33,481 bases of DNA, taken from positions 1-33,481 of the forward strand of contig CAZDZI010000005.1 in the NCBI GenBank assembly GCA_964509925.1, read 5' to 3'. The DNA comes from Candidatus Woesearchaeota archaeon. Its GTDB lineage: Archaea > Nanobdellota > Nanobdellia > Pacearchaeales > GW2011-AR1. The position numbers and the translations under genes were made by a program. The notes below the pieces were generated by a model. It was given only the letters and a program-made list of their open reading frames with translations. It did no database searches and was not told the DNA's origin. Positions 18,520-33,481 of the stretch are shown one piece after another. The stretch's first letter is position 1. Each line of letters starts with the position of its first letter.

Positions 18520-18997
18520 AAATAGTTTAAGGGTTGTAATGATTATAGAAGTTCTAGGTAAGCCTCCAGAACATCTAAAAGAAACTTTAGAAACTATGGC
18601 CTCAAATATTGGAAAAGAAAAAGGTGTGGAAATTAAAGAAAAGAAAATTAATGAGCCTGTAGAGATGGAAAAACAAAAGGGATTTTATACTAGTTTTATG
18701 GAAATAGAACTTGAGATTGAAAACATCATGCAACTTAGCAAATTATTATTCAAATATATGCCTGCTCATCTTGAAATTCTTTCTCCTGAAAACCTTAAGA
18801 TGAGTAATAACTCTATTGGAGAATTATTTAATGAACTTGCAAGAAGACTTCATGGATATGATGAAATTGCAAGAGTGATTCAAATGGAAAAAAATATTCT
18901 TGAAAACAAATTAAAAGGGCTACTAGAAAACAAAGAATCAAAAATTGATAAAACTTCTGAATCCAAGGAATCAGAGCCTAAAGAAGATGAACATTGA
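18506..18997 (+). CDS. Hypothetical protein with an acidic C-terminal tail
   Basis: 163-aa ORF that overlaps the upstream stop. No motif recognised. Confidence 0.5.
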   Translation: MNLTENSLRVVMIIEVLGKPPEHLKETLETMASNIGKEKGVEIKEKKINEPVEMEKQKGFYTSFMEIELEIENIMQLSKLLFKYMPAHLEILSPENLKMSNNSIGELFNELARRLHGYDEIARVIQMEKNILENKLKGLLENKESKIDKTSESKESEPKEDEH

Positions 18998-19244
18998 AGA
19001 AGTCGCAAAAAATATTAAAAGAATGTTATTACTTCATCCTGAAAAAAGAAGGAAAATTCTTGAAAGAGCAGAAAAAGAACTTCCAGAAAAAATTCTAAGA
19101 AACATTCCAGAAATTGCATTAAAGCTTTCTTATGACAGGTTAGTATATCCTATTGCTGGGTTAAAATATTCTAAAGGTCCTCCAAAAGAAGAACCCGGAG
19201 TATTCACAACTGCTGTTGCTGATTATTTCTTAAGAAATAGATAA
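18987..19244 (+). CDS. Hypothetical small protein (85 aa)
   Basis: The ATG at 18987 overlaps the upstream gene's end. No motif recognised. Confidence 0.4.
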   Translation: MNIEEVAKNIKRMLLLHPEKRRKILERAEKELPEKILRNIPEIALKLSYDRLVYPIAGLKYSKGPPKEEPGVFTTAVADYFLRNR

Positions 19245-19245
19245 A

Positions 19246-20532: not shown

Positions 20533-20562
20533 AGAATCTAAAGAAAAAAGGACTTAATAAAT

Positions 20563-22338
20563 TTATTTGCTCATTTCTTTTAATCTTTTAAGAACATCTC
20601 CGAGCTCTCCTGATTTTTTTTCAACTGGTTTTGGACGAGGAGCTCTTTGAGTTGGGGGGAGAATTCTTCTTGGAGTATATCGTCTCATTGGCATTCCTGG
20701 ACGAGTTGAAGGAGGCCCTCTTGGTCCTTTTGCTGATGCTCCTGATCCTCCACCTTTTCTTTTAAATTTAGAACGTATTTTATAATAATATTCTCTTACT
20801 TTTTTCTTGAAAACAATTCCAAGAACAACTAAAATAATTAAAATTAATAACATCCAAATCCACCAATAACTTTTTTCTCCTGAAGTTTTAGACATACAAC
20901 AAGAATCTCCAAAATCACATTCATAAGCTACTTCCTCTTCTCCTGCTTCACAACCAAAAGGAGCACATCTTCCACCATATGAAACACATTCAGATTCTAA
21001 AGCCACTACTTCACAAGTTCCTCCTACACAACACCTCTCTCCAGAAGTAGTATCTGAGGCATCAACTCCTAACCCTCCAACACACTTTTGATTAGAATTA
21101 CAAATTTCTCCATTTTGTTCTGAACAAGATTGTATTAATTTTGCTGTATCACAACATTTCATTACTCCTGGACACCTATAATCTCCAAGGATATTTCCTT
21201 CACAACTTACTTCTGACATACAATAATGTCCAGAAGATTCACAATCTGAAAGTGTTGTTTCAATTATCTTAGGCCAAACAGATGCTAAAATAAAAGCAGT
21301 GTCTCTAATATTTCCTTGCCAACATCCTTCTGAATCTTGAACTTCTAAAAGCCACTCTTTTGCTCTTATTTTTTCTGCTGGTTCATCGCTTATTGAATAA
21401 AGTGCAACAGCAGTATCATAAAATTTTCCTCCATCTTCATTCCAAAATTTGCTACTTTTTTGTTTTAATAATAAATCATTTCTATAATCGTCTTGAGCAG
21501 TTAATAAATATAAAAAAGATTCAGGAAGATATTCTAAATTCTCTTCAGAAGTTGTTGTTAAATATGGCATATAAGCACTCATATCATAACCATTACTATT
21601 TAGAACTAATGCTGCCCATAAGCTTCCTTCATAATTGCATTCTCCTCCTTGCATAAAACAAGCTGATTTTATTTTTTCAGTAGTTGTTCCTAATGCAGAA
21701 GCAGAGTGAGTTATATCTGGCACGTGAATTATTGAAGAAGTTTTTCTTTTGAATAATAAATTAGTTTGGAATTCTTCGTCACATGAAACTTCAAATTCTC
21801 TATCATAACATCCTGGGGAAACTTTAAGCCACCAATCTCCATTAGACAAAGAAAGACAAGGTTTTGCTCCAGTTGTTAGTGTTTTATCTTCTTTAATAAT
21901 AACAATGTGTGGTGAGCCATCATAAGTAATAGTACATCTTGTTTCTTCATCACTTTCAATTTGTAAATACCATTCTACATCAGAAGGAGAAGTATTTTGA
22001 GACATTAACCATTCTTCTGCATTAGTAGTATCTGCTGTTGTTTGACTTAATGCTAAAATTGCTTGAGCTGTTTGTTTTATGTTACATCCTGAATTTGGCC
22101 AACACTCTCCACTTGAAGAAGCAGCAATTAATTCATCCTTACATTGACCATTTGCTAATAAAGTGAATATTTTTTCTTCAAGAGCTATAGTGCCACACTT
22201 TCCACTTACTTTTGAATCAAGGCAATCATAAGCCTGATCAATTTTTGTTTGAGCATCAGTTATATTTTCTTCTGCAAGAACAAAAGATAAACTAAGTAAT
22301 AAACTAAACACTAATAATACTACCACACACTTTTTCAT
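20563..22338 (-). CDS. Secreted surface protein: alpha/alpha-toroid (prenyltransferase/terpene-cyclase-like repeat) domain, triple Cys-rich stalk, TM anchor, Pro/Arg-rich cytoplasmic tail
   Basis: Signal peptide present. Repeats such as AQAILALSQ, GSLWAALVLNSNGY, YDTAVALYSISDEP and EGCWQGNIRDTAFILASVW. About 120 aa contain repeated C...CC.G.C modules. A TM helix follows, then the tail KGPRGPPSTRPGMPMRRYTPRRILPPTQRAPRPKP. Confidence 0.65.
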   Translation of the reverse strand: MKKCVVVLLVFSLLLSLSFVLAEENITDAQTKIDQAYDCLDSKVSGKCGTIALEEKIFTLLANGQCKDELIAASSSGECWPNSGCNIKQTAQAILALSQTTADTTNAEEWLMSQNTSPSDVEWYLQIESDEETRCTITYDGSPHIVIIKEDKTLTTGAKPCLSLSNGDWWLKVSPGCYDREFEVSCDEEFQTNLLFKRKTSSIIHVPDITHSASALGTTTEKIKSACFMQGGECNYEGSLWAALVLNSNGYDMSAYMPYLTTTSEENLEYLPESFLYLLTAQDDYRNDLLLKQKSSKFWNEDGGKFYDTAVALYSISDEPAEKIRAKEWLLEVQDSEGCWQGNIRDTAFILASVWPKIIETTLSDCESSGHYCMSEVSCEGNILGDYRCPGVMKCCDTAKLIQSCSEQNGEICNSNQKCVGGLGVDASDTTSGERCCVGGTCEVVALESECVSYGGRCAPFGCEAGEEEVAYECDFGDSCCMSKTSGEKSYWWIWMLLILIILVVLGIVFKKKVREYYYKIRSKFKRKGGGSGASAKGPRGPPSTRPGMPMRRYTPRRILPPTQRAPRPKPVEKKSGELGDVLKRLKEMSK

Positions 22339-22349
22339 AATATAAATAG

Positions 22350-23894
22350 CTATTTCTTCTTTTTAAATTTAGTGGATTTTTTAGATTTATTTTTAGAGAG
22401 ATTTTTCTTAACTACATAATTAACTGGATTTTTTATCATCCTGCAAAAGTTATCTGGAACACAAACTCCAATGCCTTGATAAAATTCTTTACAATTTTGA
22501 GGCATTATTGGTTTTCTCTTATAACTCCAAATTAACTGACTTTTAATATACCCTTCTTTTAAAGGAACTTCATTTTTCTTATTCCAATCATAAATCTTTT
22601 TTTCAAGTTCTTCTTTATCCATTCCAATTGAGCGAAATAAATTAAGTAAAATAAATACCGATCTTTTTCTCCCATCACTAACTCCCTTAAGAATATTTTT
22701 TACACAAGGAGGGAATTGTTCTTCTGTGATTTTCTTTAATTGAATTGGTTTAAAATCTGCATATTTACCCTGAATTTTTTCATTTGAAACTCCTGCTTTT
22801 ATTTCATTATTTTTTGCCCAATCTAAAGCTTCTCTAATTAATTCTCTTGCTTCATTTTCTTTTGAATCAGGAAGAAAATTTTTTATTTTTACTTTTAGTG
22901 CATTTGCGTCAATCATTTCAAACTCTCTTATTTTTTCTGCATCAATTACTGCGCTTGATAAAGCAGTTTTTTCATGTAATGAATATGGCATCCTAAACAA
23001 ATGTCTTGGAGAAACTAAAATTAAATCTAATCCCAGAACTTCAAATAAATCTATTTCAATACTTTGTGAAAAATTATTTGGTTTTGTTTTAGAAGAAACA
23101 TTACACTTTTTACATTCATAGATTTTATTTGAGTTTTTAACTTCAAATGGAACTCTGCATTCAGGACATTTATATTTCTTTTTATCTTCTGGGAAAATCC
23201 TTCTTAATTCTTGTCTATGACATTTTGGACAAAAATGAGTAACAACCTCATATTCTTCTGCAACTTCACGACAATTATTGCACTTTATTCCTTTTTTTAT
23301 TTTAACATTTTTAAATTGTTCATAAAAATCTTCTGGAAGAAGTTTTATCATTTCTTGTTCAGCCTTAAATCTAATATAGGCAATCATTTTTCTTGGAAGT
23401 TCTGGAAATAAATTTTTTGCAAGTTGTCCCCCTATTTCCTTAGGAATTGCTTTCCAGGGAAGAATAATATGAAACCCTTTACTTCCACTATATTTAATCC
23501 CAATATTTTTTATCCCATGCTCCTTGAAAACATTAATAACTGCTTCTGCAGCTTTTTTACTATAATCAAACCACTTACAATCAATATCAATTAACAAATC
23601 CCATCCAATTCTTAATTCATTTAATTGTTTTACATTCATTCCAGTTTGAATATTTAAAGGGTCTTCCCATAATTCTTCAGAACAATGAAAAGATGTTGCT
23701 CCTCTTTTTACAAGTTCAAAGATATCCCCTTGATATTGAAAACTATCTGGACGTTTTCCAAAACCCTCAAAATATCTTGGAGAAATCTCTCTGTTTTTAG
23801 AAAATTCAAACATTGCTTTTTGAACCTCTGAATTAGAATAATACAATTTTGTTATATTTCTTATTCTTTTTTCCTTAAAGCTTATTTCAGACAT
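22350..23894 (-). CDS. priS: DNA primase, archaeo-eukaryotic type: PriS catalytic domain fused to a PriL-CTD-like Fe-S domain
   Basis: AEP motifs LLIDIDC (DxD), SGSKGFHI and RMPYSLHEKT. Two Zn-ribbon inserts (CNNC...CPKCH; CPECR...CKKC). The C-terminal region FPPCVKNILKG...RSVFILLNLF...NCKEF...CVPDNFC resembles PriL-CTD. The ATG at 23894 is preferred over the upstream TTG. Confidence 0.88.
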   Translation of the reverse strand: MSEISFKEKRIRNITKLYYSNSEVQKAMFEFSKNREISPRYFEGFGKRPDSFQYQGDIFELVKRGATSFHCSEELWEDPLNIQTGMNVKQLNELRIGWDLLIDIDCKWFDYSKKAAEAVINVFKEHGIKNIGIKYSGSKGFHIILPWKAIPKEIGGQLAKNLFPELPRKMIAYIRFKAEQEMIKLLPEDFYEQFKNVKIKKGIKCNNCREVAEEYEVVTHFCPKCHRQELRRIFPEDKKKYKCPECRVPFEVKNSNKIYECKKCNVSSKTKPNNFSQSIEIDLFEVLGLDLILVSPRHLFRMPYSLHEKTALSSAVIDAEKIREFEMIDANALKVKIKNFLPDSKENEARELIREALDWAKNNEIKAGVSNEKIQGKYADFKPIQLKKITEEQFPPCVKNILKGVSDGRKRSVFILLNLFRSIGMDKEELEKKIYDWNKKNEVPLKEGYIKSQLIWSYKRKPIMPQNCKEFYQGIGVCVPDNFCRMIKNPVNYVVKKNLSKNKSKKSTKFKKKK

Positions 23895-23979
23895 TAGATT
23901 AAGGAGTATGGGAAGTTTAAAAAAATACCCTATACTTGACAATAGTAATGCTTAAAAGTTAGAGTAAATTTTGATAACT

Positions 23980-24705: not shown

Positions 24706-24800
24706 GCAGTCTATTTTTATTATTTAGTAAGGTTTATATATTGTTTTTTGATAGTAATATTAAGTAAAATTTAATATATTAAGTCTTACAAAGTAATACT

Positions 24801-24926
24801 ATGAAAAAGAGGATATCTGCAACTGTTGATGACGAGATTATAAAAAAAATAAAAAAACTTCTCAAAAGAAGAAAATATCGAAATAAATCCCATGTTATTG
24901 AGGAGGCAATTTATCAATTAAAATGA
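24801..24926 (+). CDS. Small ribbon-helix-helix (CopG/Arc-like) protein, unannotated in the ORF track
   Basis: 41 aa: MKKRISATVDDEIIKKIKKLLKRRKYRNKSHVIEEAIYQLK. A beta-strand (ISATVD) is followed by two helices, the typical RHH layout. Its stop overlaps the next ATG (ATGA). Confidence 0.55.
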   Translation: MKKRISATVDDEIIKKIKKLLKRRKYRNKSHVIEEAIYQLK

Positions 24927-25675
24927 AAAAACAAGGACAAATAACTATTTTCATTATCCTAGCTATTTTAGTGGTTGTAGCATTTATTTTATTTTTTATG
25001 TTTAAAGATTCTTTAGGAATAACGGGAGGAAGCGCAACTGAAACAAATCCTCAAAGATACATTGAACTTTGTGTCGAGGAAGATATGAGAACTGCTATTA
25101 ATACTTCACTTGCGCAAGGAGGATTTTTAGAGCCTAAAGATTACAAATTACATAATGATATTCCTGCAACTTATTTATGTAAAAATATTGGATTTTACAA
25201 TCCTTGCATTAATCAGCATCCAATGTTGCTTAATGAAATAAAATTAGACTTAAAAAATAAAATTAAACCTGTTGTAGAAGATTGTTTTATTGAACTAAAA
25301 GAAAATTTTGAAAAAAGAGGATATAATGTTGTTCTTGGAGAGGACAAAGGAATAAATGTGACTCTTGCTCCAGAAATAGTTTATTTAGAAATTGACAGAA
25401 GTGTTTCAATTAGTAAAGCTGAAGAAAAAGTTAGTTTCAATGAAATGAAAATTCCTTACAAAAGTTCATTATATAATTTAATAAAAATTGCAGTAGATAT
25501 TGTTAGAAACGAAGCAAAGTTTTGTTATTTTGAATATTTAGGATACATGAATCTTTATCCTCGTTATCTCCTTCATATAAAAGTATTTTCAGATTCAAGC
25601 AAGGTATATAGTATTAAAGATAAAAATACTCAAGAAGAAATGAATATTGCTGTTAGGGGGTGTGCCTTAGGATGA
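24923..25675 (+). CDS. Class III signal (pilin-like N-terminus) protein, cassette copy 1 (A1)
   Basis: N-terminus MKKQGQ/ITIFIILAILVVVAFILFF. Paralogous to 31086-31841, sharing QGG.LEP, YLC, the EC/DCF.EL segment and RGY.V. Conserved Cys residues are present. Confidence 0.7.
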   Translation: MKKQGQITIFIILAILVVVAFILFFMFKDSLGITGGSATETNPQRYIELCVEEDMRTAINTSLAQGGFLEPKDYKLHNDIPATYLCKNIGFYNPCINQHPMLLNEIKLDLKNKIKPVVEDCFIELKENFEKRGYNVVLGEDKGINVTLAPEIVYLEIDRSVSISKAEEKVSFNEMKIPYKSSLYNLIKIAVDIVRNEAKFCYFEYLGYMNLYPRYLLHIKVFSDSSKVYSIKDKNTQEEMNIAVRGCALG

Positions 25676-28600
25676 TGTTTTGGAAAAAACCATATGCCAG
25701 AGTAATGATTCAGATTTTTTTAGTTGTAAGTATGAGCATTGCATTTTCATTTATTGTTAATGAAGGAGAGAAAAATTTAGTTTCTGCTGCAGAAGTTGGA
25801 GATTTTATAAGTACCTGCATTGAATCTAATGAGGGAACAATTTGTCAAGAATTTTTAAAAGAGGATTGTAATTCTAATTGTAAAGAAAGTTGTATTGAAA
25901 ATTCAAGAGATAATGTCCCAGAATGTGAATTAGGAACTTGTTATAATCCTGTAGAAGGAGATTGTTTACCTAATTCTCCTAAAAAATCCTGTGAAGATTT
26001 TGGGGGAGAATGGAATGAAGATGTGGTGGGAAATCTTCCTGAATGTGAATTAGGTTGTTGTCTTACAGGAGAACAAGCTAGCTTTATTACTGAACAAGGA
26101 TGTAGAAGGATAAGAGAAACTACTGGAATCCTTACTCAATTTAAACCAGAAATAAATGATGAATTAAGTTGCTGGCAAGAAGCAAGAGCTCAGAAAAAAG
26201 GGGCATGTATCTTAAGGGAAGGGGAAGGAGTGTGTAGACTTCTTACCCAAAGAAGATGCTCTCAATTAAATGGAGATTTTTTTGAAGACTTTTTATGTTC
26301 TCATCCAGATTTAGAAACTGATTGTGAAAAACAAATTTCTACAAATTGTATTGAAGGAGAAGATGAAATTTATTGGATAGATAGTTGTGGTAATAGAGAA
26401 AATATTTATGAAGGAAGTAGTTCAAGTCAAAAAGATCATAGTTGGAATGAAGGAAAAATCTTATTAAAATCAGATGCATGTTTTTTGACAGATTCTAATT
26501 CTGATGTTTGCGGAAATTGTAATTTACTGGGAGGTTCAACTATTTGTGGGGATAAAACATTTTCAGAAAGATTAAAAGATGGTGAACAAGATGTTGTTTG
26601 TAAAGAAGCTTCTTGTATTGATGAAGAAGGGAATATAAGAGAACACGGAGAGTCTTGGTGTTTTTACCAAGGAGCTGCAAATCCTGATGAAGGAGATAGA
26701 GGATATTTAAGATCTGTTTCAACTCCTGGAAGTAAAAATTTTAAATTATGGTGTTATGAAGGAGAAATATCTAATGTTTCTTGTGGAGAAAGAAGAGATA
26801 AAATCTGTGAAGAATCTCAAGTAGAAAAAGCAGACGGGGGCACAATAAGTACTGCTATGTGTAGAAGTAATCTTGCAGACCAATGTATTGGATATAACTT
26901 TGAAGATGATGGGATGGAACTATGTAATGAAAATCCAGATTGTTATGCAAAAAAAGTTGATGTTTCTCAGTCAAAATTTAAATTTAATTTCTGTGTTCCA
27001 AAATATCCTAAAGGATTTAATATGGAAAGCTCTTCACAAGTAGCAGAAGATACTTGCGGGATTGCTTCAATGACTTGTAATGTTGCAAAAATAAAAAAAG
27101 TTGGAAAAGATAAATGGATAAATAAAGGGTGTTTAAGGGAAGGCTTTACAAAACAGATGAATGATTTTTGTATGTCTTTAGGAGATTGTGGTGCGAGTGT
27201 TAATTATATTGGAGAATTTTCAGATTCTGGTTATAGGATTAAAAAGGCTCCAAAATTAGGGAATAGCTACATCCAAAAACTAAAAACTTATTCTATTCCA
27301 AATCCTCTTGACTTCATTAAAAGTGCTTCAATACTTTCATTTGTTGGAAGTTTAGGGCTAGGAAATAAAGGAGAAATTCCTAGTGATTGGGAGGATGAAG
27401 GAGATATTACTAAAGAAGAAGGGTTTGAAAGCTTTTTACAAGGCGCAGGTTTTGGGGGGATGGCATTAAAATCTCTTGCACCAAGTACTGGTGCATTCGC
27501 TCCTTTTGTAACAGCAATTGCAGGTGCAGCAATTGGAGCTGCTATTGCAGGGTATGCTATTGAAAAAACAGGCATTAGTGCAGGAATAAGTCCTGCATTA
27601 GCTTATGCTTTAATTGGAACTGCAGCAGTTGGAGGAGCAATGGTAGCTCTTGCACCTACTGGACCAGTAGGATGGATAATCATAGCAGTGGTGTTAATTG
27701 TTATTGGTGTTTTAAAATTAGTAGGAATAGGAGATGTAAAAATATACAAAGTTACATTTACCTGTAAAGCTTGGCAACCTCCAACAGGTGGAGAAGATTG
27801 TAGTAAATGTTATGATGATGACTTAGGTTGTTCAAAATATTCTTGTGAAAATTTGGGAGCTGGATGTAAATTTGTAAATGAAGGCAGTATCTTTGAAGAA
27901 TGTAAATATGTTCCATCAGATGCAAGTCCCCCACAAATTAATCCAAATTATGAGGTATTAACAGAAGGGTTTAGTTATGAAAATATTTCTAATAAAGGAT
28001 TTAAAGTTGCTGCCCCCACAGAAGGAGGTTGTATTCCTGCATTTACTCCAGTAACTATTGGATTAACACTTAATGAACCAGGAAGATGTACTTTTTCAGT
28101 TGAAAATGTTGCATTTGATGAAGGAGAGATTCTTGGTTTTTTAGATGAAGGAGAATATAATCCAGAAGACTTTGGCCTTGGAGATGAATTTTTAGGATTA
28201 ATAGGGGAAGACGATTCATTGCAAGATTATGATGAAGATGAAGATTTTCAAATAGACCCTGGAATGGATGAATTTTATTTTGGAGGAAATAATTTATTTT
28301 TAGAAAATCACACTCATCCAATATATCTTCCTAGTCTTGGAAGTTTAGGAGTTGGAGGATTTAGCCCAGATAGAAGAGTTGATTTTGAATTAAAAATAAG
28401 GTGCGAAGACACAGATGGAAATAAAAATCCAGTAGATTATGTCATAAAAACTTGCTTAATGCCTGAAAAAGATATTTTTCCTCCAATAGTTATGACTTAT
28501 GACCCTTTAGATAATTTAACAAACCATAATTCATCAGAACAAAAGATTTCCATTTATACTAATGAACCAGCTGAATGTAAATGGAGTTCAATGGATAAAG

Positions 28601-29364
28601 ATTATAATAATATGGAAAATTATATGGAATGTGAAAATGAACCAGAAGATGTAAAACCAAGAGGATTTGAATGTTCTACAAATCTTGCTGTGAATTCTGA
28701 AAATATTACTTATTATGCTCGTTGTTTAGACCAACCATGGCTTAAGGGAACAGAAAATGAAAGTGAAAGACATGCTATGGAAAAGAGCCATGTTATTAGC
28801 TTGAAAAGAAGTGAGCCATTAGAGATTATCTCTCTGTCTCCAAAAGATAATGAAGTTTTAACATTTGGTACTGAACCTGCTTCATTAAAAGTTGAGATTA
28901 AAACTTCTGGTGGAGGATATAATGGAAATGCGGAATGTTCATATTTATTTGAAGAAAATTGGATTACTCTTGCAGACACTTTTGATGATGAGCATGAACA
29001 AATATTTAATCAGTTTAGTTCAGGTAAAAAAGAATTAAATATTAAATGCGAAGATATTATTGGTAATGTGGCTTATGAAACTTCTAATTTTAAAATTGAT
29101 ATAGATAATACAGCTCCAGAAGTTGTAAGAGCATATTATGAATTAAACAACTTAAAGATTATAACTAATGAACCAGCTGTTTGTTACTATGATTATTATG
29201 GTTGTAATTTTGACGTAGATAATGCTAGTTCAATGACTTTTGGGCTTTCTACAACTCACTCTACTGACTGGGAAGTTGGAAAAACCTATTATATTAAATG
29301 TATAGATACTTGGAGAAATTGGAAATCTGGTTGTTCTAAGATTATAAAACCTGGAGAGTTTTAA
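25672..29364 (+). CDS. Giant cysteine-rich membrane/surface protein, cassette copy 1 (B1, about 1230 aa)
   Basis: Its ATG overlaps the A1 stop (ATGA). Layout: Sec-type signal, a Cys-rich ectodomain of about 540 aa (PECELG.C twice, EHGESWC, CVPKYPKGFN), a Gly/Ala-rich TM cluster (about 27427-27730), an acidic linker, and three modules bearing NEP[AG].C. Confidence 0.8.
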   Translation: MMFWKKPYARVMIQIFLVVSMSIAFSFIVNEGEKNLVSAAEVGDFISTCIESNEGTICQEFLKEDCNSNCKESCIENSRDNVPECELGTCYNPVEGDCLPNSPKKSCEDFGGEWNEDVVGNLPECELGCCLTGEQASFITEQGCRRIRETTGILTQFKPEINDELSCWQEARAQKKGACILREGEGVCRLLTQRRCSQLNGDFFEDFLCSHPDLETDCEKQISTNCIEGEDEIYWIDSCGNRENIYEGSSSSQKDHSWNEGKILLKSDACFLTDSNSDVCGNCNLLGGSTICGDKTFSERLKDGEQDVVCKEASCIDEEGNIREHGESWCFYQGAANPDEGDRGYLRSVSTPGSKNFKLWCYEGEISNVSCGERRDKICEESQVEKADGGTISTAMCRSNLADQCIGYNFEDDGMELCNENPDCYAKKVDVSQSKFKFNFCVPKYPKGFNMESSSQVAEDTCGIASMTCNVAKIKKVGKDKWINKGCLREGFTKQMNDFCMSLGDCGASVNYIGEFSDSGYRIKKAPKLGNSYIQKLKTYSIPNPLDFIKSASILSFVGSLGLGNKGEIPSDWEDEGDITKEEGFESFLQGAGFGGMALKSLAPSTGAFAPFVTAIAGAAIGAAIAGYAIEKTGISAGISPALAYALIGTAAVGGAMVALAPTGPVGWIIIAVVLIVIGVLKLVGIGDVKIYKVTFTCKAWQPPTGGEDCSKCYDDDLGCSKYSCENLGAGCKFVNEGSIFEECKYVPSDASPPQINPNYEVLTEGFSYENISNKGFKVAAPTEGGCIPAFTPVTIGLTLNEPGRCTFSVENVAFDEGEILGFLDEGEYNPEDFGLGDEFLGLIGEDDSLQDYDEDEDFQIDPGMDEFYFGGNNLFLENHTHPIYLPSLGSLGVGGFSPDRRVDFELKIRCEDTDGNKNPVDYVIKTCLMPEKDIFPPIVMTYDPLDNLTNHNSSEQKISIYTNEPAECKWSSMDKDYNNMENYMECENEPEDVKPRGFECSTNLAVNSENITYYARCLDQPWLKGTENESERHAMEKSHVISLKRSEPLEIISLSPKDNEVLTFGTEPASLKVEIKTSGGGYNGNAECSYLFEENWITLADTFDDEHEQIFNQFSSGKKELNIKCEDIIGNVAYETSNFKIDIDNTAPEVVRAYYELNNLKIITNEPAVCYYDYYGCNFDVDNASSMTFGLSTTHSTDWEVGKTYYIKCIDTWRNWKSGCSKIIKPGEF

Positions 29365-29390
29365 TTCTTCAATAGTAACAAATAATAAGA

Positions 29391-29398
29391 TTTAAATA
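29391..29398 (+). promoter_or_regulatory. TATA-like box for the leaderless lipobox gene at 29420
   Basis: TTTAAATA ends 22 nt before the ATG. Confidence 0.35.
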
Positions 29399-29419
29399 GT
29401 TTAAATTGCTGGAAAAAAT

Positions 29420-29454
29420 ATGAAAAAAACACTTACTAAATTAGCACTTTTAGG
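29420..29454 (+). repeat. 35-nt exact direct repeat, copy 1 (5' end of L1)
   Basis: ATGAAAAAAACACTTACTAAATTAGCACTTTTAGG is identical to 29934-29968. The sequences diverge immediately afterwards. Confidence 0.9.
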
Positions 29455-29932
29455 AACAGGCTTAGCACTTGGAGGTTTAGCTAGTTCTGGCTGTGTAGGA
29501 GAACAACTTGCAGGAGAAATTGGGCTTGGTTTAGCAGTTGGTGCTGCTGAACAGAAAATTGCTCATGAAGTTAATTCAAAACAAACAAATGTTAATGTTT
29601 ACAATCAAGGAAATGGTCAAGAAATTCCCCTTACAATGGTAAGGGAATATTATATTGATGAAAATTTTTTAGATGGTACTGAAAAAGATAAAAAAGAAGC
29701 TAGATCTATCTATAAGGCTCTTGTATTAGAAACCCTATACCTTAAAATGAAAACTCGAAAAGAATTTTATGACAAACTAAAAACCATTGATTTAAGTTAT
29801 TGCTCAGAAGGATTTAAGGAAAGTTTTGAAAAATATATTGAAGAATGTAAAAAAAGCACTCCAAATGTTGTAAAGAGTTGGGGGAAAGTGATGCAAGAAG
29901 CAATAAAAGAAGGGGTTAGACCAAAAAAATAA
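29420..29932 (+). CDS. Lipobox protein L1 (170 aa), unknown function
   Basis: MKKTLTKLALLGTGLALGGLASSGC is a signal with a lipobox-like SSGC. The remainder is hydrophilic and helical. Confidence 0.7.
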   Translation: MKKTLTKLALLGTGLALGGLASSGCVGEQLAGEIGLGLAVGAAEQKIAHEVNSKQTNVNVYNQGNGQEIPLTMVREYYIDENFLDGTEKDKKEARSIYKALVLETLYLKMKTRKEFYDKLKTIDLSYCSEGFKESFEKYIEECKKSTPNVVKSWGKVMQEAIKEGVRPKK

Positions 29933-29933
29933 T

Positions 29934-29968
29934 ATGAAAAAAACACTTACTAAATTAGCACTTTTAGG
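29934..29968 (+). repeat. 35-nt exact direct repeat, copy 2 (5' end of L2)
   Basis: Identical to 29420-29454. Confidence 0.9.
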
Positions 29969-31031
29969 GGCAGGAGTATTGGCTACTTCTGGTTGTATTG
30001 ATCAATGGACTCCTCAAGGACATGCTCTTGTAAATAATATATTACATACTGCAATAAAACACGGAGTTACAAGAGCTGTGAATCCTCAACAACCAGCTCA
30101 AACAAATGTTTATGTTCAAGGGAATCAACAAGTTCAAGAGGGAGGTTGGCAAGTTCAAGGAGATTGGCAAGTGCAAGTGCCTGCTCAACCAGAAAGAAGA
30201 AAAACAGATATTCCTGAAGGAATTCATTCCTATACTTCTCTGAAAGATAAAGATGGCGATGGAAAAATAGATACTTTTGAATTAGAAAAATATGATAAAA
30301 CAAAATTTGATGTTCAAGACCCAGGAGAAATTATGTTTTTATTTAATAAGGGAGATTATGAAGGGGAAATAAAATGGTATATTCAAGAAGGTTGGGAATC
30401 TAAATTACCTAAATATCCTTCTCAAACTCAAAAAGGGAAAAAAGGAGAAATTCAAACGATAATTATGAATAAAGAGGTATTGAAGAGGAATAATAAGTAT
30501 AAAATTACTACAGTTACTGATGATGGAAAAGAATATGCGATGAAGATTGAAATTGATGGAATAAAATTTTGGAATGAAAATACTCCTCAAGGAATTTTTG
30601 TGTATAATAAATGGGAAGATAAAGATAAAGATAGAATTAAAGAAAAAGATGAATTAAAAGGTTTAGGAAAAAGGGTATTTGATTTAAGTAAAGAAAATAT
30701 GTTTGTACTCTTTCACTATCCTAATCAAAAAGGAAATGTAAGATTTAGATTATATGATGAAAAAGGCAAATTAATTAGAGAAACAACTGACTATAATTCT
30801 GGGGAATTTGTAAAAGGTAGATTTACTGGTCCAAAATCCCCTTTAAATCCTAAAGGAGATTTTATGGATTATTTAAAAGATTCTGGTCCTGGAAAATATA
30901 GAATAACAGCAAATGCAGAAGGGGTTACTAATGAATATGCTATTAATGTTGAAGTAATTGGGAATGAAAAATCACCTAAAGTTAAAACTCCAGAAAAAGT
31001 TGAACCTAAAGCTGAATCTTCTAAAGAATAA
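29934..31031 (+). CDS. Lipobox protein L2 (365 aa) with an EF-hand-like Ca-binding loop
   Basis: MKKTLTKLALLGAGVLATSGC. A canonical EF-hand loop DKDGDGKIDTFE lies at 30246-30281. A second, degenerate loop is DKDKDRIKEKDE. A WQVQ mini-repeat is also present. Confidence 0.7.
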   Translation: MKKTLTKLALLGAGVLATSGCIDQWTPQGHALVNNILHTAIKHGVTRAVNPQQPAQTNVYVQGNQQVQEGGWQVQGDWQVQVPAQPERRKTDIPEGIHSYTSLKDKDGDGKIDTFELEKYDKTKFDVQDPGEIMFLFNKGDYEGEIKWYIQEGWESKLPKYPSQTQKGKKGEIQTIIMNKEVLKRNNKYKITTVTDDGKEYAMKIEIDGIKFWNENTPQGIFVYNKWEDKDKDRIKEKDELKGLGKRVFDLSKENMFVLFHYPNQKGNVRFRLYDEKGKLIRETTDYNSGEFVKGRFTGPKSPLNPKGDFMDYLKDSGPGKYRITANAEGVTNEYAINVEVIGNEKSPKVKTPEKVEPKAESSKE

Positions 31032-31057
31032 ACTATTTTTTATTTATAGTAAAAAGT

Positions 31058-31065
31058 TTATAAAT
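31058..31065 (+). promoter_or_regulatory. TATA box (AAAGTTTATAAA context) for the second cassette copy
   Basis: TTTATAAA ends 21 nt before the ATG at 31086. Confidence 0.4.
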
Positions 31066-31085
31066 CACAAAATCATATTATTTTA

Positions 31086-31841
31086 ATGAAAAAGAGAGGT
31101 CAAGTCACTATATTTATTATATTAGCAATTGTAATTGTTGCTATGGGAATTCTTATTTATATGTTCTATCCACAAATTAAAAGTGCCTTAGGGTTTGAAC
31201 AACAAAATCCCAATGCATTTATTCAAAGTTGCTTGCAAGATAAAATTAAAGAAACCGTGAGTATTTTAAGTCCACAGGGAGGGGTTTTAGAACCAGAATT
31301 TTACTATACATATCAAGATGATAAAATAAAATATCTTTGTTACACTAATCAAGATTATGAAACCTGCACAGTTCAGGAACCTATGTTAAAACAAACTACT
31401 GAATCTGAAATTAAAAAAGATATTAATGAGGAGGTTAAAGAGTGTTTTGATGAACTTGAAAGCGCATTTAGGGGAAGAGGTTATCAAGTTGATTTAAAGA
31501 GAAAAGAATTTGCAGTTGAATTACTTCCAAAAAGAATTGTTACAAGATTTAACTATACTCTATCATTAAAAAAAGGTGATGAAACTGAAAGCTATAATGA
31601 ATTTATGATAGTTTTAAACAATAATCTTTATGAATTGATTTCTATTGCTAATAGTATTGTAAGTTATGAATCCACCCTGGGAGATATTGAGACTACAACC
31701 TATATGGATTATTATCATGATTTAAAAGTTGAAAAGAAAAAACAAACAGATGGAACCACAATCTATATACTTACAGACTTAAATACTGAAGACAAATTCC
31801 AATTTGCTTCAAGAAGTGTTGTATTCCCTCCAGGGTATTAA
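31086..31841 (+). CDS. Class III signal (pilin-like N-terminus) protein, cassette copy 2 (A2)
   Basis: MKKRGQ/VTIFIILAIVIVAMGILIYMF. Paralog of 24923-25675. Confidence 0.7.
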   Translation: MKKRGQVTIFIILAIVIVAMGILIYMFYPQIKSALGFEQQNPNAFIQSCLQDKIKETVSILSPQGGVLEPEFYYTYQDDKIKYLCYTNQDYETCTVQEPMLKQTTESEIKKDINEEVKECFDELESAFRGRGYQVDLKRKEFAVELLPKRIVTRFNYTLSLKKGDETESYNEFMIVLNNNLYELISIANSIVSYESTLGDIETTTYMDYYHDLKVEKKKQTDGTTIYILTDLNTEDKFQFASRSVVFPPGY

Positions 31842-31842
31842 A

Positions 31843-33381
31843 ATGAAAAAAAATAATTTAATTAAAATCAGTATTTTTTTCTTAGTTGGAATTTTTTTAA
31901 TTTCAATGGTTTCTGCTGAAATTTCTTATTGTTGTGAAAAAACAACTTATGGTGCTTGGTGCCAGAATGAAGAACAAGAAAAATGTGACAGTGATTTTAC
32001 AATTGCTCCAACTTCTTGTGAAGCTAGTAGTTTTTGTAGACAAGGATGTTGTTATAATAGTCAAGAAGGAGAATGTATGGAAAATACTCCTCAAAAAGTT
32101 TGTTTAGAAAAAAATGGTGTTTGGAGTGATAACCCTAATTGTGAAATTCCTCAATGTGAATTAGGTTGTTGTTTAATTGGAGACCAGGCAGCATTTGTTA
32201 CTCAAACTCGTTGTAAAAGATTATCAAATTTATATGGATTAGAAAATAATTTTAGAACTGACATTGAGGGAGAAACTCAATGTATTTTAAGTGCTACCTC
32301 AGATGTTGAAGGTGCTTGTATATTTGTTAAAGAATTTGAAACAACTTGTAAAAGAACAACTAAACAAGAATGTAGTGAACTTAAAGCAACTAGCGAAGAT
32401 GACGTTGATTTTTATGAAGGAAAGCTATGTTCTAGTGAAGAACTTGGAACTAATTGTGCTCCTACTGATAAAACAACTTGTGTAGAAGGTGAAGATGCTG
32501 TTTTCTTTTTAGATAGTTGTGGCAATTTAGCTAATGTTTATGATTCTACTAAAAGAGATAGTAAAAATTATTGGGCAGAAATAAAAGATGTTTCTGAAAG
32601 CTGTGGTTATGGAACAAATGGAAATCCTAGTTCAAGAACATGTGGTAATTGTGATTATTTTCTTGGAACAACTTGTAAAGAATATGAAAGAGGTACAGAT
32701 GCTGGAGCCCCAAATTATGGAGATAATATTTGTAGAGATTTAGGGTGTTCTTATGAAGGTGATAGATATGAACACGGAGAGTCATGGTGTGCTATTGTTT
32801 CTGATGGAGAAATAATTATTGGTAAAGATGATACTTTTAATGAAAAAAATTTACAAGAAAAAAATAGCCCTGGAAGCAGATACTTTAGATTACTTTGTTA
32901 TAATGGAGAAGTTCTTAATGAGCCTTGTGCGGATTTTAGAACAGAGGTTTGTATTCAAAGCAATATTGGAGAGTATAGAGTTGCAGCTTGTAGAGCAAAT
33001 AGATGGCAAGATTGTGCTTCTCAAGGAGATACAAAAGATTGTGAAAATGAAGCTAAAAGAGATTGCCAATGGATAGAGATAGAAGACATTATGTCTGGTT
33101 GTGTTCCAAAATATTCTCCAGGATATAATTTCTGGGAGGAAAGTGAAACTGCTTGTGAAGCAGCAAATGTACAATGCAGTATTTCTTACGAACAAAGACT
33201 TTTACAAAAAGAATGGGATTGTGAAGAAAATTGTAATTGTGAAAAAGATTCTTGGGCAGAAAAAGCAAATAAACTTTGCGGGTATATGGGAGATTGTGGG
33301 ATTAAAGATAACTTCTTAGGGTATGAAGGATTTTTCGAGATTAAAGATTTACATAAAGTAGGAAAATTAAAGAAAGAATAA
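31843..33381 (+). CDS. Cysteine-rich secreted protein, cassette copy 2 (B2); homologous to the N-terminal ~540 aa of B1 only
   Basis: The ATG at 31843 lies 1 nt after the A2 stop. Signal peptide ...LISMVSA/E. Blocks shared with B1: PQCELGCCL.G.QA.F.T, C.EGED..F.LDSCGN, EHGESWC, PGS..F.L.CY.GE and CVPKYSPGYN. Confidence 0.8.
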   Translation: MKKNNLIKISIFFLVGIFLISMVSAEISYCCEKTTYGAWCQNEEQEKCDSDFTIAPTSCEASSFCRQGCCYNSQEGECMENTPQKVCLEKNGVWSDNPNCEIPQCELGCCLIGDQAAFVTQTRCKRLSNLYGLENNFRTDIEGETQCILSATSDVEGACIFVKEFETTCKRTTKQECSELKATSEDDVDFYEGKLCSSEELGTNCAPTDKTTCVEGEDAVFFLDSCGNLANVYDSTKRDSKNYWAEIKDVSESCGYGTNGNPSSRTCGNCDYFLGTTCKEYERGTDAGAPNYGDNICRDLGCSYEGDRYEHGESWCAIVSDGEIIIGKDDTFNEKNLQEKNSPGSRYFRLLCYNGEVLNEPCADFRTEVCIQSNIGEYRVAACRANRWQDCASQGDTKDCENEAKRDCQWIEIEDIMSGCVPKYSPGYNFWEESETACEAANVQCSISYEQRLLQKEWDCEENCNCEKDSWAEKANKLCGYMGDCGIKDNFLGYEGFFEIKDLHKVGKLKKE

Positions 33382-33383
33382 AA

Positions 33384-33481
33384 ATGAATAAATATGGAAA
33401 AATAGCAATACTGCAAATAATGATTTTATTAGTTGGTGTAGTAGCTTTTGCTTATATGATTGGGATTGCTAATATTGGGTT
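33384..33481 (+). CDS. Membrane protein, 5' fragment (C2); probable counterpart of the TM-plus-C-terminal part of B1
   Basis: The ATG lies 2 nt after the B2 stop. MNKYGKIAILQIMILLVGVVAFAYMIGIANIG... is hydrophobic. The ORF runs off the window edge. Confidence 0.45.
   Translation, partial: MNKYGKIAILQIMILLVGVVAFAYMIGIANIG

What the first reader, a model, noticed from the sequence alone, without database searches (positions are those of the whole stretch)
24733..33481. Duplicated, domain-less cell-surface cassette: RHH, pilin-like protein, giant Cys-rich membrane protein, two lipobox proteins, then pilin-like and Cys-rich proteins again
From a TATA-like box at 24733 to the window edge, every product is predicted to be exported or membrane-bound, and none matches a family I recognise. 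The gene order is: RHH (24801), A1 (24923), B1 (25672, about 1230 aa), L1 (29420), L2 (29934), A2 (31086), B2 (31843), C2 (33384, partial). A1/A2 and B1/B2 are clear paralog pairs with long collinear conserved blocks. Examples are QGG.LEP and YLC in the A pair, and PECELGCCL, LDSCGN, EHGESWC and CVPKY in the B pair. Junctions are translationally coupled: ATGA overlaps at RHH/A1 and A1/B1, and 1-2 nt gaps at A2/B2 and B2/C2. A pilin-type N-terminus paired in strict order with a very large disulfide-capable ectodomain, duplicated in tandem and led by its own regulator, looks like a dedicated surface apparatus. In a host-dependent DPANN-type cell that could serve attachment or cell-cell interaction. 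It does not look like a set of random hypothetical genes. The function is unknown and the system extends beyond the window.
Basis: partly seen in the sequence, partly recalled or inferred. Interest (0 to 1): 0.85.

Follow-up and report, generated by a model that had tools for sequence, protein, structure and literature searches.

The report
Conserved orphan surface-protein cluster in DPANN archaea
This is a real operon, fixed in hundreds of Pacearchaeota/Woesearchaeota-type (DPANN) archaeal species, that encodes pilin-like membrane proteins paired with giant cysteine-rich membrane proteins; none resembles any known family or solved or predicted structure I could search, so it most likely builds a still-undescribed cell-envelope machine.

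Summary
The genes RHH, A1, B1, L1, L2, A2, B2 and C2 are present, tightly coupled, and paralogous (A1/A2 E=6e-45; B1 N-half/B2 E=4e-68).

**Corrections**
- B2 matches only the N-terminal half of B1. C2 is the other half, so copy 1 is fused and copy 2 is split.
- RHH is a cytoplasmic CopG-type protein and is not exported.

**Not a recent duplication.** The order PCNA-[RHH]-A-B-A'-B'N-[lipoprotein]-B'C, followed by four more pilin-like genes and a wHTH, recurs in 84 loci from different species. At least 574 GTDB species carry a B relative, and the best 80 are all Pacearchaeota, Woesearchaeota or Nanoarchaeota.

**Conservation.** A and B evolve about as slowly as the primase. The lipoproteins are the fast-evolving part.

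**Similarity searches.** Confident AlphaFold models of A1 (pLDDT 93.5) and the B1 N-half (89.4) match nothing in PDB; the B1 N-half model was also searched against BFVD and matched nothing. There is no fusexin, S-layer, pilin or protease match. Pfam, NCBIfam and PHROGs give only weak Ig-like hits in B's C-half.

**Best reading (confidence 0.4).** A multi-subunit envelope complex of class-III-signal (pilin-like) subunits plus B scaffolds, each with two ectodomains around a Gly-rich four-segment hydrophobic (TM) region. It is possibly related to type IV filaments.

Function is untested.

The parts
24727..24800 (+). Putative promoter and leader of the operon. It contains a TATA-like TTTATATA at 24733-24740 inside a conserved TAAGGTTTATATA, plus repeated AGTAA(T/A/G)N motifs (AGTAATA at 24752 and 24791) that could be an RHH operator.
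   Evidence: The block is invariant in the window, L001 and L003. The octamer alone is not above chance in the window. Promoter and operator roles are inferred.
24801..24926 (+). RHH: a 41-aa ribbon-helix-helix (CopG/Arc-type) DNA-binding protein. It is cytoplasmic and is the presumed regulator. Its stop overlaps the A1 start (ATGA).
   Evidence: Pfam RHH_1 E=1.9e-7, 31.2 bits against a cut-off of 20.5. An RHH lies directly before A in 33 loci. The junction was read.
24923..25675 (+). A1: a 250-aa bitopic membrane protein. It has an N-terminal class-III-signal-like motif (MKKQG|Q) and a TM helix at aa 3-30. A variable disordered linker (aa 31-42) follows. The alpha/beta ectodomain has 6 conserved Cys and conserved NQHP and CYFEYxGY motifs.
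   Evidence: AF2 model pLDDT 93.5. Family alignment of 86 sequences. The motif is present in 129/156 family ORFs. No Foldseek PDB hit. No PDB sequence hit.
25672..29364 (+). B1: a 1230-aa fused giant protein.
- Signal peptide or anchor: aa 8-31, with a conserved VSA at aa 37-39.
- Cys-rich N ectodomain: aa 40-560 (nt 25789-27351; 41 Cys). It begins with four roughly 40-aa beta-beta-alpha modules.
- Gly/Ala-rich four-segment hydrophobic region: aa 588-686 (nt 27433-27729).
- C ectodomain: aa 690-1230 (nt 27739-29361). It has a juxtamembrane Cys knot and about four Ig-like domains carrying NEPAxC motifs.
   Evidence: 62 Cys. AF2 model of aa 1-560, pLDDT 89.4. Invariant Cys and Gly columns. Four hydropathy peaks averaged over 38 homologues. 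Weak Big_13 hits in 11/38 members and DUF4625 in 4/38.
29420..29932 (+). L1: a 170-aa predicted lipoprotein (signal peptide, Cys25 after ...LASSG).
   Evidence: Homologues are detectable only in the closest relatives.
29934..31031 (+). L2: a 365-aa predicted lipoprotein (Cys21 after ...LATSG). It shares only its first ~65 aa with L1. It has two DxDxDG-type (EF-hand/dockerin-like) loops. This is the fast-evolving component of the cluster.
   Evidence: EF-hand_5 E=0.047, below threshold. Only one homologue at E<=1e-3 in 5.8e9 proteins.
31086..31841 (+). A2 (A'): a 251-aa ancient paralogue of A1 with the motif MKKRG|Q.
   Evidence: The A and A' classes are separate: 40% identity within a class against 29% between classes.
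31843..33381 (+). B2 (B'N): 512 aa, with a Sec signal peptide (..VSA|E) followed by the Cys-rich N-domain only. It has no membrane anchor, so it is predicted to be secreted and held by partner proteins.
   Evidence: The B-N family has 1477 representatives in two length classes.
33384..33481 (+). C2 (B'C): the first 32 aa (signal peptide/TM) of the split C-half paralogue. In relatives this protein is about 690-940 aa and consists of a signal peptide, a Gly-rich TM region, a Cys knot and Ig-like domains.
   Evidence: The L001 orthologue (18416-20662) aligns to B1 aa 587-1227 with E=1e-75. N-termini are compared.

Best explanation
**What it is.** The region is the 5' two-thirds of a roughly 14-kb operon that is fixed in Pacearchaeota/Woesearchaeota-type DPANN archaea. 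It encodes a multi-subunit cell-envelope complex.

**Shown**
- Two anciently diverged, non-redundant A-B sets are present.
- A and A' are bitopic proteins with a class-III-signal-type N-terminus and a disulfide-bonded alpha/beta ectodomain.
- B has two large disulfide-rich ectodomains flanking a conserved glycine-rich region of four hydrophobic segments. The N domain is an orphan fold. The C domain is a Cys knot plus Ig-like domains.
- In set 2 the same protein is split into a secreted N part (B'N) and a membrane-embedded C part (B'C).
- In relatives the operon continues with four more proteins carrying class-III-type N-termini and ends at a divergent wHTH gene. A large gene follows; in three of the four loci read that far it carries an S_layer_C domain.

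**Inferred**
- A pairs 1:1 with B. The basis is strict adjacency, start/stop overlap and parallel duplication.
- The six class-III-signal proteins are processed by a prepilin-type peptidase encoded elsewhere.
- Together they form a short type-IV-filament-like stalk or pseudopilus, or a bindosome-like membrane array. This carries or docks the B/B' scaffolds on the cell surface.
- The variable lipoproteins act as exchangeable accessory or specificity factors.
- The RHH autoregulates the operon.
- Slow evolution and universal presence argue for a core envelope function (contact, anchoring or exchange structure). They argue against a strain-specific adhesin.
For: - **Genes, coupling and paralogy:**
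- **Conserved synteny:** 84 loci, with A->B in 83/84; B->A'->B'N in 64; the full core in 38 (the rest are truncated); PCNA directly upstream in 37/37.
- **Distribution:** 445 B homologues and 91 A homologues, all from DPANN where named. At least 574 GTDB species loci. 1477 representatives of the B-N domain.
- **Ancient paralogy:**
- **Class-III-type motif:** [KR][GA]Q in 129/156 A-family ORFs, and KRG[QF] / K[KR]GF / KAQ in the four downstream families. hhalign similarity between these families is confined to the N-termini, as is typical of pilins.
- **Extracellular location:**
  - about 50 invariant Cys in B and 6 conserved Cys in A;
  - Ig-like hits in the C half;
  - an even number (4) of hydrophobic segments, with invariant Gly593, Gly596 and Gly687.
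- **Purifying selection comparable to primase:** median identity is B-N 37%, B2 44% and A 35-40%, against primase 41.5% and PCNA 54%.
- **Fast-evolving lipoproteins:**
- **Class III signals elsewhere in this genome:** a separate candidate pilin at 4696-5250 (MKKKG|AMELTMGTMVTIVLL) suggests this organism uses them.
- **Literature:** archaeal TFF loci commonly combine pilins with large adhesin-like proteins (bioRxiv 10.64898/2026.04.22.720090).
Against: - No TFF ATPase, platform protein or prepilin peptidase lies within +/-10 kb in the six annotated loci, or among the window ORFs large enough to encode an ATPase or platform protein.
- No Pfam archaeal-pilin N-terminal model hits any of the proteins.
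- The A1 model is not a pilin fold. Its TM helix is separated from the globular domain by a variable disordered linker, and Foldseek finds no pilin or pseudopilin.
- B is predicted to be membrane-embedded, which does not fit a filament-tip adhesin.
- No A-B interaction, processing, localisation or expression was tested.
- The C half of B and the four downstream proteins were not modelled.
Confidence: 0.4

Rival explanations
1. A filament-independent membrane complex. The [KR][GA]Q N-termini are simply signal anchors. A/B and A'/B' assemble, probably as a hetero-oligomer, into a channel-like or scaffold structure through B's glycine-zipper-type four-segment hydrophobic (TM) region. This structure anchors or organises the S-layer, or imports material such as lipids and nutrients that these reduced archaea cannot make.
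For: - The TM region is conserved beyond what an anchor needs, with invariant Gly593, Gly596 and Gly687 and four segments.
- Both paralogue sets are universally retained.
- Conservation is at housekeeping level.
- A large S_layer_C protein gene follows the cluster in L003, L004 and L087.
- No TFF machinery lies nearby.
- A1 is not a pilin fold.
- The only sequence similarities of the TM region are very weak: the T3SS translocator AopB (E=1.4) and phage tape-measure TM segments (E=0.007).
Against: - It does not explain why six different proteins keep a conserved G/A-Q motif exactly at the start of the hydrophobic helix.
- No channel or transporter homology was found.
- The AopB and tape-measure similarities are not significant.
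- S-layer adjacency was seen in only three loci.
Confidence: 0.3
2. A host-attachment or cell-cell fusion/bridge apparatus. B is an adhesin or fusogen-like protein that contacts, or inserts into, the host cell membrane, and A is its partner.
For: - DPANN lineages are largely episymbiotic, and pili or surface proteins mediate contact (PMC9938205, PMC6142677).
- B has very large exposed ectodomains and Gly/Ala-rich amphiphilic segments reminiscent of fusion or translocator peptides.
- B'N is secreted without an anchor.
- The variable lipoproteins could supply host specificity.
Against: - The confident B-N model shows no structural similarity to fusexins, HAP2, class II fusogens or any adhesin in PDB or BFVD (best E 0.44 and 0.05).
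- A and B evolve as slowly as primase across hundreds of species from many habitats. That is atypical for host-recognition proteins.
- No relatives occur on viral contigs or mobile elements.
- It is not established that these particular archaea are host-attached.
Confidence: 0.15
3. A chance run of unrelated hypothetical genes, or a mobile or viral insertion.
For: - No functional annotation exists for the A, B or L proteins; RHH matches Pfam RHH_1.
- The genome is AT-rich, so long spurious ORFs and TATA-like strings are common.
Against: - Hundreds of full-length homologues have invariant residues.
- The gene order is identical next to PCNA and primase in dozens of species.
- AF2 models are confident.
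- There are no IMG/VR relatives and no significant PHROG hits.
Confidence: 0.01

Closest known systems
Bacterial minor-pilin plus large tip-adhesin operons (T4aP fimU-pilVWXY1E; T2SS pseudopilins GspH-I-J-K)
   Same: - A set of several small proteins sharing only a prepilin-type N-terminus. The sizes in relatives are 168, 312, 188 and 174 aa, plus A and A'.
- These are encoded together with a protein of more than 1000 aa that carries a Sec signal.
- The assembly ATPase and platform are encoded elsewhere.
   Different: - No sequence or fold similarity was found. No Pfam family, including PilY1/PilC or pilin models, scored at the thresholds used, and Foldseek gave nothing.
- B is membrane-embedded, with two ectodomains around a four-segment hydrophobic (TM) region.
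- The A-B pairing and the fused/split duplication have no counterpart.
- The A1 ectodomain is tethered by a flexible linker instead of packing on alpha1-C.
Archaeal type IV filament (TFF) loci with accessory adhesin-like proteins (systems 2 and 4A of bioRxiv 10.64898/2026.04.22.720090; Makarova et al. 2016, PMC4858521)
   Same: - Archaeal class-III-signal proteins are clustered with large predicted surface proteins.
- Pilin sequences are too divergent for family models.
   Different: - Those loci are defined by the ATPase and platform genes, which are absent here within +/-10 kb.
- The A and B families are not among the described accessory proteins in the texts I searched.
Sulfolobus bindosome (class-III-signal sugar-binding proteins assembled by the Bas system)
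   Same: Class-III-signal proteins that are not filament subunits but stay at the membrane as functional ectodomains. This is a precedent for A acting as a tethered, processed surface protein (from my own knowledge and PMC6098224).
   Different: - There is no substrate-binding-protein fold or ABC transporter here.
- No Bas-like ATPase or membrane genes are nearby.
Archaeal fusexins (Fsx1) / HAP2 / class II fusogens
   Same: Large, disulfide-rich, beta-rich ectodomains followed by TM segments in an archaeal surface protein.
   Different: - Foldseek of the pLDDT 89 B-N model against PDB and BFVD gave no hit.
- The cluster is not on a mobile element.
- The cluster is universally conserved and syntenic with housekeeping genes.
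Predicted archaeal secretion/S-layer complex around arCOG01314, arCOG02884 and MoxR-vWA (Makarova et al. 2015, PMC5898192)
   Same: A conserved neighbourhood of membrane proteins with 2-4 TMs and extracellular Ig-like domains, next to S-layer-type genes.
   Different: No DUF4350, DUF1616 (pfam07760), vWA or MoxR ATPase matches were found in or near the cluster.

Membership tests
Archaeal type IV pilins / class III signal peptide proteins | Short positively charged N-terminus, [KR]-[GA] cleavage motif, then an uninterrupted hydrophobic helix | tested here: met
   - A family consensus: NK[KR][GA]Q + about 22 hydrophobic residues in 129/156 ORFs. The Q is conserved in at least 90% of sequences.
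- A1 is KKQG|Q and A2 is KKRG|Q.
- Similar motifs occur in p168, p312, p188 and p174 of relatives.
Archaeal type IV pilins / class III signal peptide proteins | Match to curated pilin N-terminal models (Pfam Class_IIIsignal, Pilin_N or similar) | tested here: not met
   No such Pfam or NCBIfam hit at E<=1 for A1 or A2, for the p-proteins, or at E<=0.5 for 15 p312 members.
Archaeal type IV pilins / class III signal peptide proteins | Pilin fold: a long N-terminal helix whose C-terminal half packs on a beta-sheet | tested here: not met
   - In the A1 model, helix 3-30 is followed by a disordered, non-conserved linker (31-42) and a separate alpha/beta domain.
- The best Foldseek PDB hit has E=0.017 and TM 0.12, with no pilins among the hits.
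- The p-proteins were not modelled.
Archaeal type IV pilins / class III signal peptide proteins | Cleavage by a prepilin peptidase (PibD/FlaK/EppA) and assembly by a TFF ATPase and platform | not testable with these tools
   - None of these genes lies within +/-10 kb in six annotated loci, or among the window ORFs large enough to encode an ATPase or platform protein.
- Whole genomes could not be read.
Fusexin / HAP2 / class II fusion proteins | Three-domain beta-rich ectodomain fold detectable by structure comparison | tested here: not met
   B1 aa 1-560 model (pLDDT 89.4) against PDB and BFVD gave nothing with E<0.05 and no fusogen among the hits.
S-layer proteins | Match to S-layer domain families (S_layer_N/C, SLH and others) or to solved S-layer folds | tested here: not met
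   - No Pfam or NCBIfam hit, no PDB sequence hit and no Foldseek hit.
- A separate S_layer_C gene lies downstream of the cluster in relatives.
Ribbon-helix-helix (CopG/Arc/MetJ) regulators | RHH_1 domain above the Pfam gathering threshold | tested here: met
   RHH 24801-24926: E=1.9e-7, 31.2 bits against a cut-off of 20.5. DNA binding and autoregulation were not tested.
Lipobox lipoproteins | [LVI][ASTVI][GAS]C at the end of a signal peptide | tested here: inconclusive
   - L1 ...LASSG-C25 and L2 ...LATSG-C21 have S/T instead of L/V/I at position -3.
- Homologues mostly show [LIVMF]-x-G-C.
- Lipoproteins are prevalent in DPANN (PMC12462473).
- No dedicated predictor was available.
Bacterial Ig-like domains (Big_13 and similar) | Domain match above the gathering threshold | tested here: inconclusive
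   - Big_13 hits 11/38 B-family members (best E=9e-4) and DUF4625 hits 4/38, all sub-threshold. The window's B1 is not among them.
- The repeated NEPAxC motifs are consistent with Ig-like repeats.
- The C half was not modelled.
PilY1/PilC-type pilus tip adhesins | C-terminal beta-propeller (Pfam Neisseria_PilC) and/or vWA domain | tested here: not met
   No such hit in B1, B2 or 38 family members.

The most novel reading that the evidence does not exclude
A/B, A'/B'N/B'C and the four downstream class-III-signal proteins build a previously unrecognised, lineage-defining envelope nanomachine of Pacearchaeota/Woesearchaeota. B oligomerises through its glycine-zipper hydrophobic region into a membrane conduit crowned by two orphan-fold, disulfide-locked ectodomains. 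The pilin-like subunits form its stalk. The machine mediates physical exchange with partner cells, for example uptake of lipids or metabolites that these reduced archaea cannot synthesise. On this reading it is a new class of archaeal cell-cell contact or transport system, not a variant of type IV pili.
Probability: 0.15. Interest if true: 0.9.

Novelty: categorically new. Interest (0 to 1): 0.65.

Why it matters
Pacearchaeota and Woesearchaeota are among the most widespread uncultivated archaea. How they build their envelope and obtain what their reduced genomes cannot make is unknown.

This cluster has four properties that make it a useful target:
- It is present in at least 574 GTDB species-representative genomes and was found in all 84 non-redundant loci examined.
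- It is as conserved as replication genes.
- It is entirely extracytoplasmic apart from its regulator.
- Its two modelled core proteins (A and the B N-domain) give confident predicted folds with no known relatives.

It is therefore a concrete, sequence-defined candidate for the core surface machine of the lineage. It could be pursued by cryo-ET, metaproteomics and heterologous expression, and it could serve as a phylogenetic marker.

The conserved fused (B) and split (B'N + B'C) versions of one protein in the same operon provide a natural experiment on subunit architecture.

If the link to type IV filaments is real, the cluster extends that superfamily to a new accessory module. If it is not, this is a new kind of archaeal envelope system.

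Tried and rejected
- **Family libraries.** Pfam, NCBIfam and PHROGs scans of all cassette proteins gave only RHH_1. A Pfam scan of 38 B-family members gave only sub-threshold Ig-like hits. A Pfam scan of the downstream and upstream neighbours and of 15 p312 members gave nothing.
- **Profiles against PDB sequences.** Profile HMMs of the A, B, p312 and p168 families found nothing. The only near-hits were AopB at E=1.4 on the TM region and PilE1 at E=0.33 on the p168 N-terminus.
- **Structure searches.** Foldseek of A1 against PDB, and of B-N against PDB and BFVD, gave no hit with E<=0.001. The fusexin, S-layer, adhesin, protease and pilin assignments are rejected on this basis.
- **Viral or mobile origin.** There are no relatives in IMG/VR.
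- **Relation between A and the downstream pilin-like families.** hhalign similarity is confined to the N-terminal 30-55 residues.
- **The MoxR/vWA/arCOG01314 predicted secretion system (PMC5898192).** It was considered and rejected because none of its signature domains is present.
- **Literature.** Five full-text searches and seven papers gave no description of this cluster.
- **L2 homologue search.** Only one relative was found, so it gave no functional lead.
- **TATA-box statistics.** The octamer is not enriched in the window. It was kept only because it is conserved in relatives.
  - a structure model of the B C-half, the p-proteins, L1 and L2;
  - any multimer prediction;
  - a search for remote homologues beyond the orthologue-saturated hit lists.

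Full report

Yes. ORF listing reproduces every gene at the stated coordinates.
- RHH 24801-24926, A1 24923-25675 (250 aa), B1 25672-29364 (1230 aa).
- L1 29420-29932, L2 29934-31031.
- A2 31086-31841, B2 31843-33381 (512 aa).
- C2 starts at 33384 and is cut by the end of the sequence. The window is the entire contig.

The junctions read as claimed. There are ATGA overlaps at RHH/A1 and A1/B1, a 1-nt spacer at A2/B2 and a 2-nt spacer at B2/C2.

The paralogy is overwhelming. A1/A2 share 34% identity over their full length (E=6e-45). B1 residues 11-530 align with B2 at 31% identity (E=4e-68).

Three corrections apply.
- B2 covers only the N half of B1. The C half of B1 (aa 587-1227) aligns with the C2-type protein of a close relative at E=1e-75. 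Set 1 is therefore a fused protein and set 2 is the same protein split in two.
- RHH is a bona fide Pfam RHH_1 protein (E=1.9e-7) and is cytoplasmic.
- The TATA-like octamer is not above chance in this 30% GC window. Even so, TAAGGTTTATATA and flanking AGTAATA repeats are invariant in two relatives whose B orthologues are 62-64% identical.

**2. Anatomy**

*A1 and A2.*
- Each begins with K-K-(Q/R)-G-Q followed by about 22 hydrophobic residues.
- An AlphaFold2 model built on 86 family members has mean pLDDT 93.5.
- It shows a TM helix (aa 3-30), then a disordered linker (31-42) that is not conserved.
- A compact alpha/beta ectodomain follows. It carries six conserved Cys and conserved NQHP and CYFEYxGY motifs.

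*B1.*
- It has a signal sequence with a conserved VSA.
- The 520-aa N ectodomain contains 41 Cys, nearly all invariant across 59 homologues. It was modelled at pLDDT 89.4.
- That model starts with four roughly 40-residue beta-beta-alpha modules followed by beta-rich domains.
- Residues 588-686 form four hydrophobic segments in the family-averaged hydropathy profile, with invariant Gly593, Gly596 and Gly687.
- An even number of segments places the C half outside the cell. The C half has 21 Cys and repeated NEPAxC motifs. Related members give sub-threshold Ig-like Pfam hits: Big_13 in 11/38 and DUF4625 in 4/38.

*B2, C2, L1 and L2.*
- B2 has a normal Sec signal peptide and no anchor, so it must be held by partners.
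- C2-type proteins carry a signal peptide resembling B's own (..FAFSF..VSA).
- L1 and L2 share only a signal peptide, a lipobox-like Cys and a short linker.
- Their -3 position is atypical, but homologues show [LIVMF]-x-G-C.

**3. Surroundings and relatives**

The rest of the window is archaeal housekeeping:
- PCNA;
- a fused PriS-PriL primase;
- class I LysRS and CysRS;
- a RuBisCO large subunit (form III by my inference from the DPANN context);
- ribosomal proteins S19e and L31e;
- about 30% GC overall.

Distribution of the families:
- B1 has 445 homologues at E<=1e-3. The best 120 are almost all full-length (about 1200-1360 aa). All are unannotated, and where a source names them they are Pacearchaeota or Nanoarchaeota.
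- A1 has 91 homologues from the same lineages. NCBI locus tags show A and B as neighbours.
- A scan of one genome per GTDB species found at least 574 loci encoding a B relative. The best 80 all come from Pacearchaeota, Woesearchaeota or Nanoarchaeota MAGs.
- An exhaustive phmmer search with B2 found 1477 representative proteins (678 at E<=1e-30). They fall into two length classes, roughly 500-650 aa and 1200-1500 aa.

Using my own HMMs on 84 non-redundant loci, the gene order is essentially invariant:
- (two secreted anchored proteins, primase) <- | -> PCNA, [RHH], A, B(fused), A', B'N, [0-3 lipoproteins], B'C;
- then four proteins of about 168, 312, 188 and 174 aa;
- then a divergent HVO_A0114-type wHTH;
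- and, in three of the four loci read that far, a large S_layer_C protein.

Counts from those loci:
- A->B holds in 83/84.
- B->A'->B'N holds in 64, and the full core in 38. The remainder are truncated by contig ends.
- PCNA is directly upstream in 37/37.

A and A' are ancient paralogues. Identity is 40% within a class across genomes against 29% between classes. The best foreign hit is of the same class in 120/121 cases.

All four downstream proteins, like A and A', start with [KR][GA][QF] followed by a hydrophobic helix. Profile-profile similarity among these families is limited to the N-terminus.

Relative rates are informative. Against the window, median identities are PCNA 54%, primase 41.5%, B2 44%, A2 40%, B1-N 37%, A1 35% and B1-C 34%. 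L2, by contrast, has a single detectable homologue in 5.8 billion proteins.

**4. What it is not**
- Pfam, NCBIfam and PHROGs find nothing for A, B or L.
- Profiles of A, B, p312 and p168 find nothing among PDB sequences.
- Foldseek with the two confident models finds nothing in PDB (best E=0.017 for A1 and 0.44 for B-N). It also finds nothing in BFVD for B-N (best E=0.05).
- Fusexin/HAP2/class II fusogen, S-layer, protease, PilY1 and canonical pilin assignments are therefore not supported.
- There are no relatives on viral contigs.
- No type IV filament ATPase, platform protein or prepilin peptidase lies within 10 kb in six annotated loci.
- The window ORFs long enough to encode a TFF ATPase or platform protein were all scanned, and none is one.

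**5. How it most likely works**

*Shown.* This is a co-inherited, translationally coupled set of extracytoplasmic proteins. It comprises two non-redundant A-B sets under strong purifying selection, plus variable lipoproteins, led by an RHH gene.

*Inferred.*
- A pairs with B. B'N is retained on the cell by A' and/or B'C.
- The six class-III-signal proteins are processed by a prepilin-type peptidase.
- They form a short filament-like stalk or a bindosome-like array that carries or docks the B scaffolds.
- The window contains a separate, more typical pilin candidate at 4696-5250. This suggests the organism uses class III signals.
- Archaeal TFF loci often combine pilins with large adhesin-like proteins.

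I give this reading 0.4.

*Main rival (0.3).* A filament-independent membrane complex, either channel-like or S-layer-anchoring.
- It is favoured by the conserved glycine-rich TM region, the non-pilin A fold, the missing TFF genes and the adjacent S-layer gene.
- It is weakened by the conserved G/A-Q motif in six different proteins.

- It fits poorly with primase-like conservation across hundreds of species.
- Surface proteins of Nanoarchaeota are reported to be the fast-evolving class (PMC6142677).
- The absence of any fusogen or adhesin fold also counts against it.

**6. Comparison with known systems and novelty**

Functionally, the nearest analogies are:
- bacterial minor-pilin/PilY1 or pseudopilin operons;
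- archaeal TFF loci with adhesins;
- the Sulfolobus bindosome.

Membership in the pilin family is met only for the N-terminal motif. It fails for family models, for fold (A1) and for neighbourhood, so I do not file the cluster there.

No paper in the searchable library describes this cluster. I therefore rate it categorically new as a gene system: orphan families, orphan folds and a unique fused/split paired architecture.

One caveat applies. If processing and filament assembly are demonstrated, it would become a new accessory module of type IV filaments.

Interest is 0.65. This is a lineage-wide, well-defined, experimentally addressable candidate for the core surface machine of a major uncultivated archaeal group, but no function has been demonstrated.

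Noticed in passing
window 4696-5250 (+): A 184-aa ORF with a textbook archaeal class III signal (MKKKG|AMELTMGTMVTIVLLVMVLILGG) and no Pfam hit. It is a candidate genuine type IV pilin outside the cluster. Its upstream neighbour at 4448-4693 (81 aa) is also hydrophobic at its N-terminus.
   Followed up: partly
window 19246-22338 (-): Two conserved secreted proteins with C-terminal TM anchors and no Pfam family. One is 428 aa. The other is 591 aa, has 31 Cys and carries three Cys-rich modules before the anchor. They are syntenic with primase, PCNA and the cluster in about 25-35 species, so they may belong to the same surface gene island.
   Followed up: partly
window 24727-24800: Three to four copies of AGTAA(T/A/G)N lie between the conserved TATA-like box and the RHH start codon, including AGTAATA at 24752 and 24791. 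They are conserved in L001 and L003 and could be the RHH operator.
   Followed up: partly
window 22350-23942 (-): The DNA primase is a single 530-aa fusion with a small-subunit (PriS) domain followed by a large-subunit (PriL) domain. Related loci encode similar 510-560-aa proteins.
   Followed up: no
window 6782-8071 (+): A RuBisCO large subunit (both Pfam domains, probably form III) sits in a genome fragment that is otherwise housekeeping. This fits RuBisCO-bearing Pacearchaeales.
   Followed up: no
window 28099-28280 (B1 aa ~810-870): A roughly 60-residue strongly acidic, low-complexity insert (..DEGEYNPEDFGLGDEFLGLIGEDDSLQDYDEDEDFQIDPGMDEF..) lies in the first Ig-like domain of B1. The B'C paralogue lacks it.
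   Followed up: no
L001 20697-23177; L003, L004, L086, L087 equivalents: Beyond the window edge the operon continues with B'C and four class-III-signal proteins (about 168, 312, 188 and 174 aa, each with conserved Cys). A divergent HVO_A0114-type wHTH follows, and then a large gene; in L003, L004 and L087 its product hits S_layer_C.
   Followed up: yes
L033; L087 9561-10004: Two variants of the cluster were seen. L033 carries three A-B sets (A B A B A' B'N B'C). L087 has a GNAT acetyltransferase gene inserted between A and B.
   Followed up: no
window 25672-25790 and 33384-33481; B'C N-termini in relatives: The signal peptide of fused B (..FAFSF..VSA) resembles that of B'C, not that of B'N. 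The fused form therefore looks like an N-domain placed behind a B'C-type signal peptide. The direction of the fusion or split event is unresolved.
   Followed up: partly
window 29934-31031 (L2): L2 contains two DxDxDG-type loops (DKDGDGKID, DKDKDRIKEKDE), which suggests Ca2+ binding. It has only one detectable homologue, so the lipoproteins are hypervariable inserts in an otherwise very conserved operon.
   Followed up: partly
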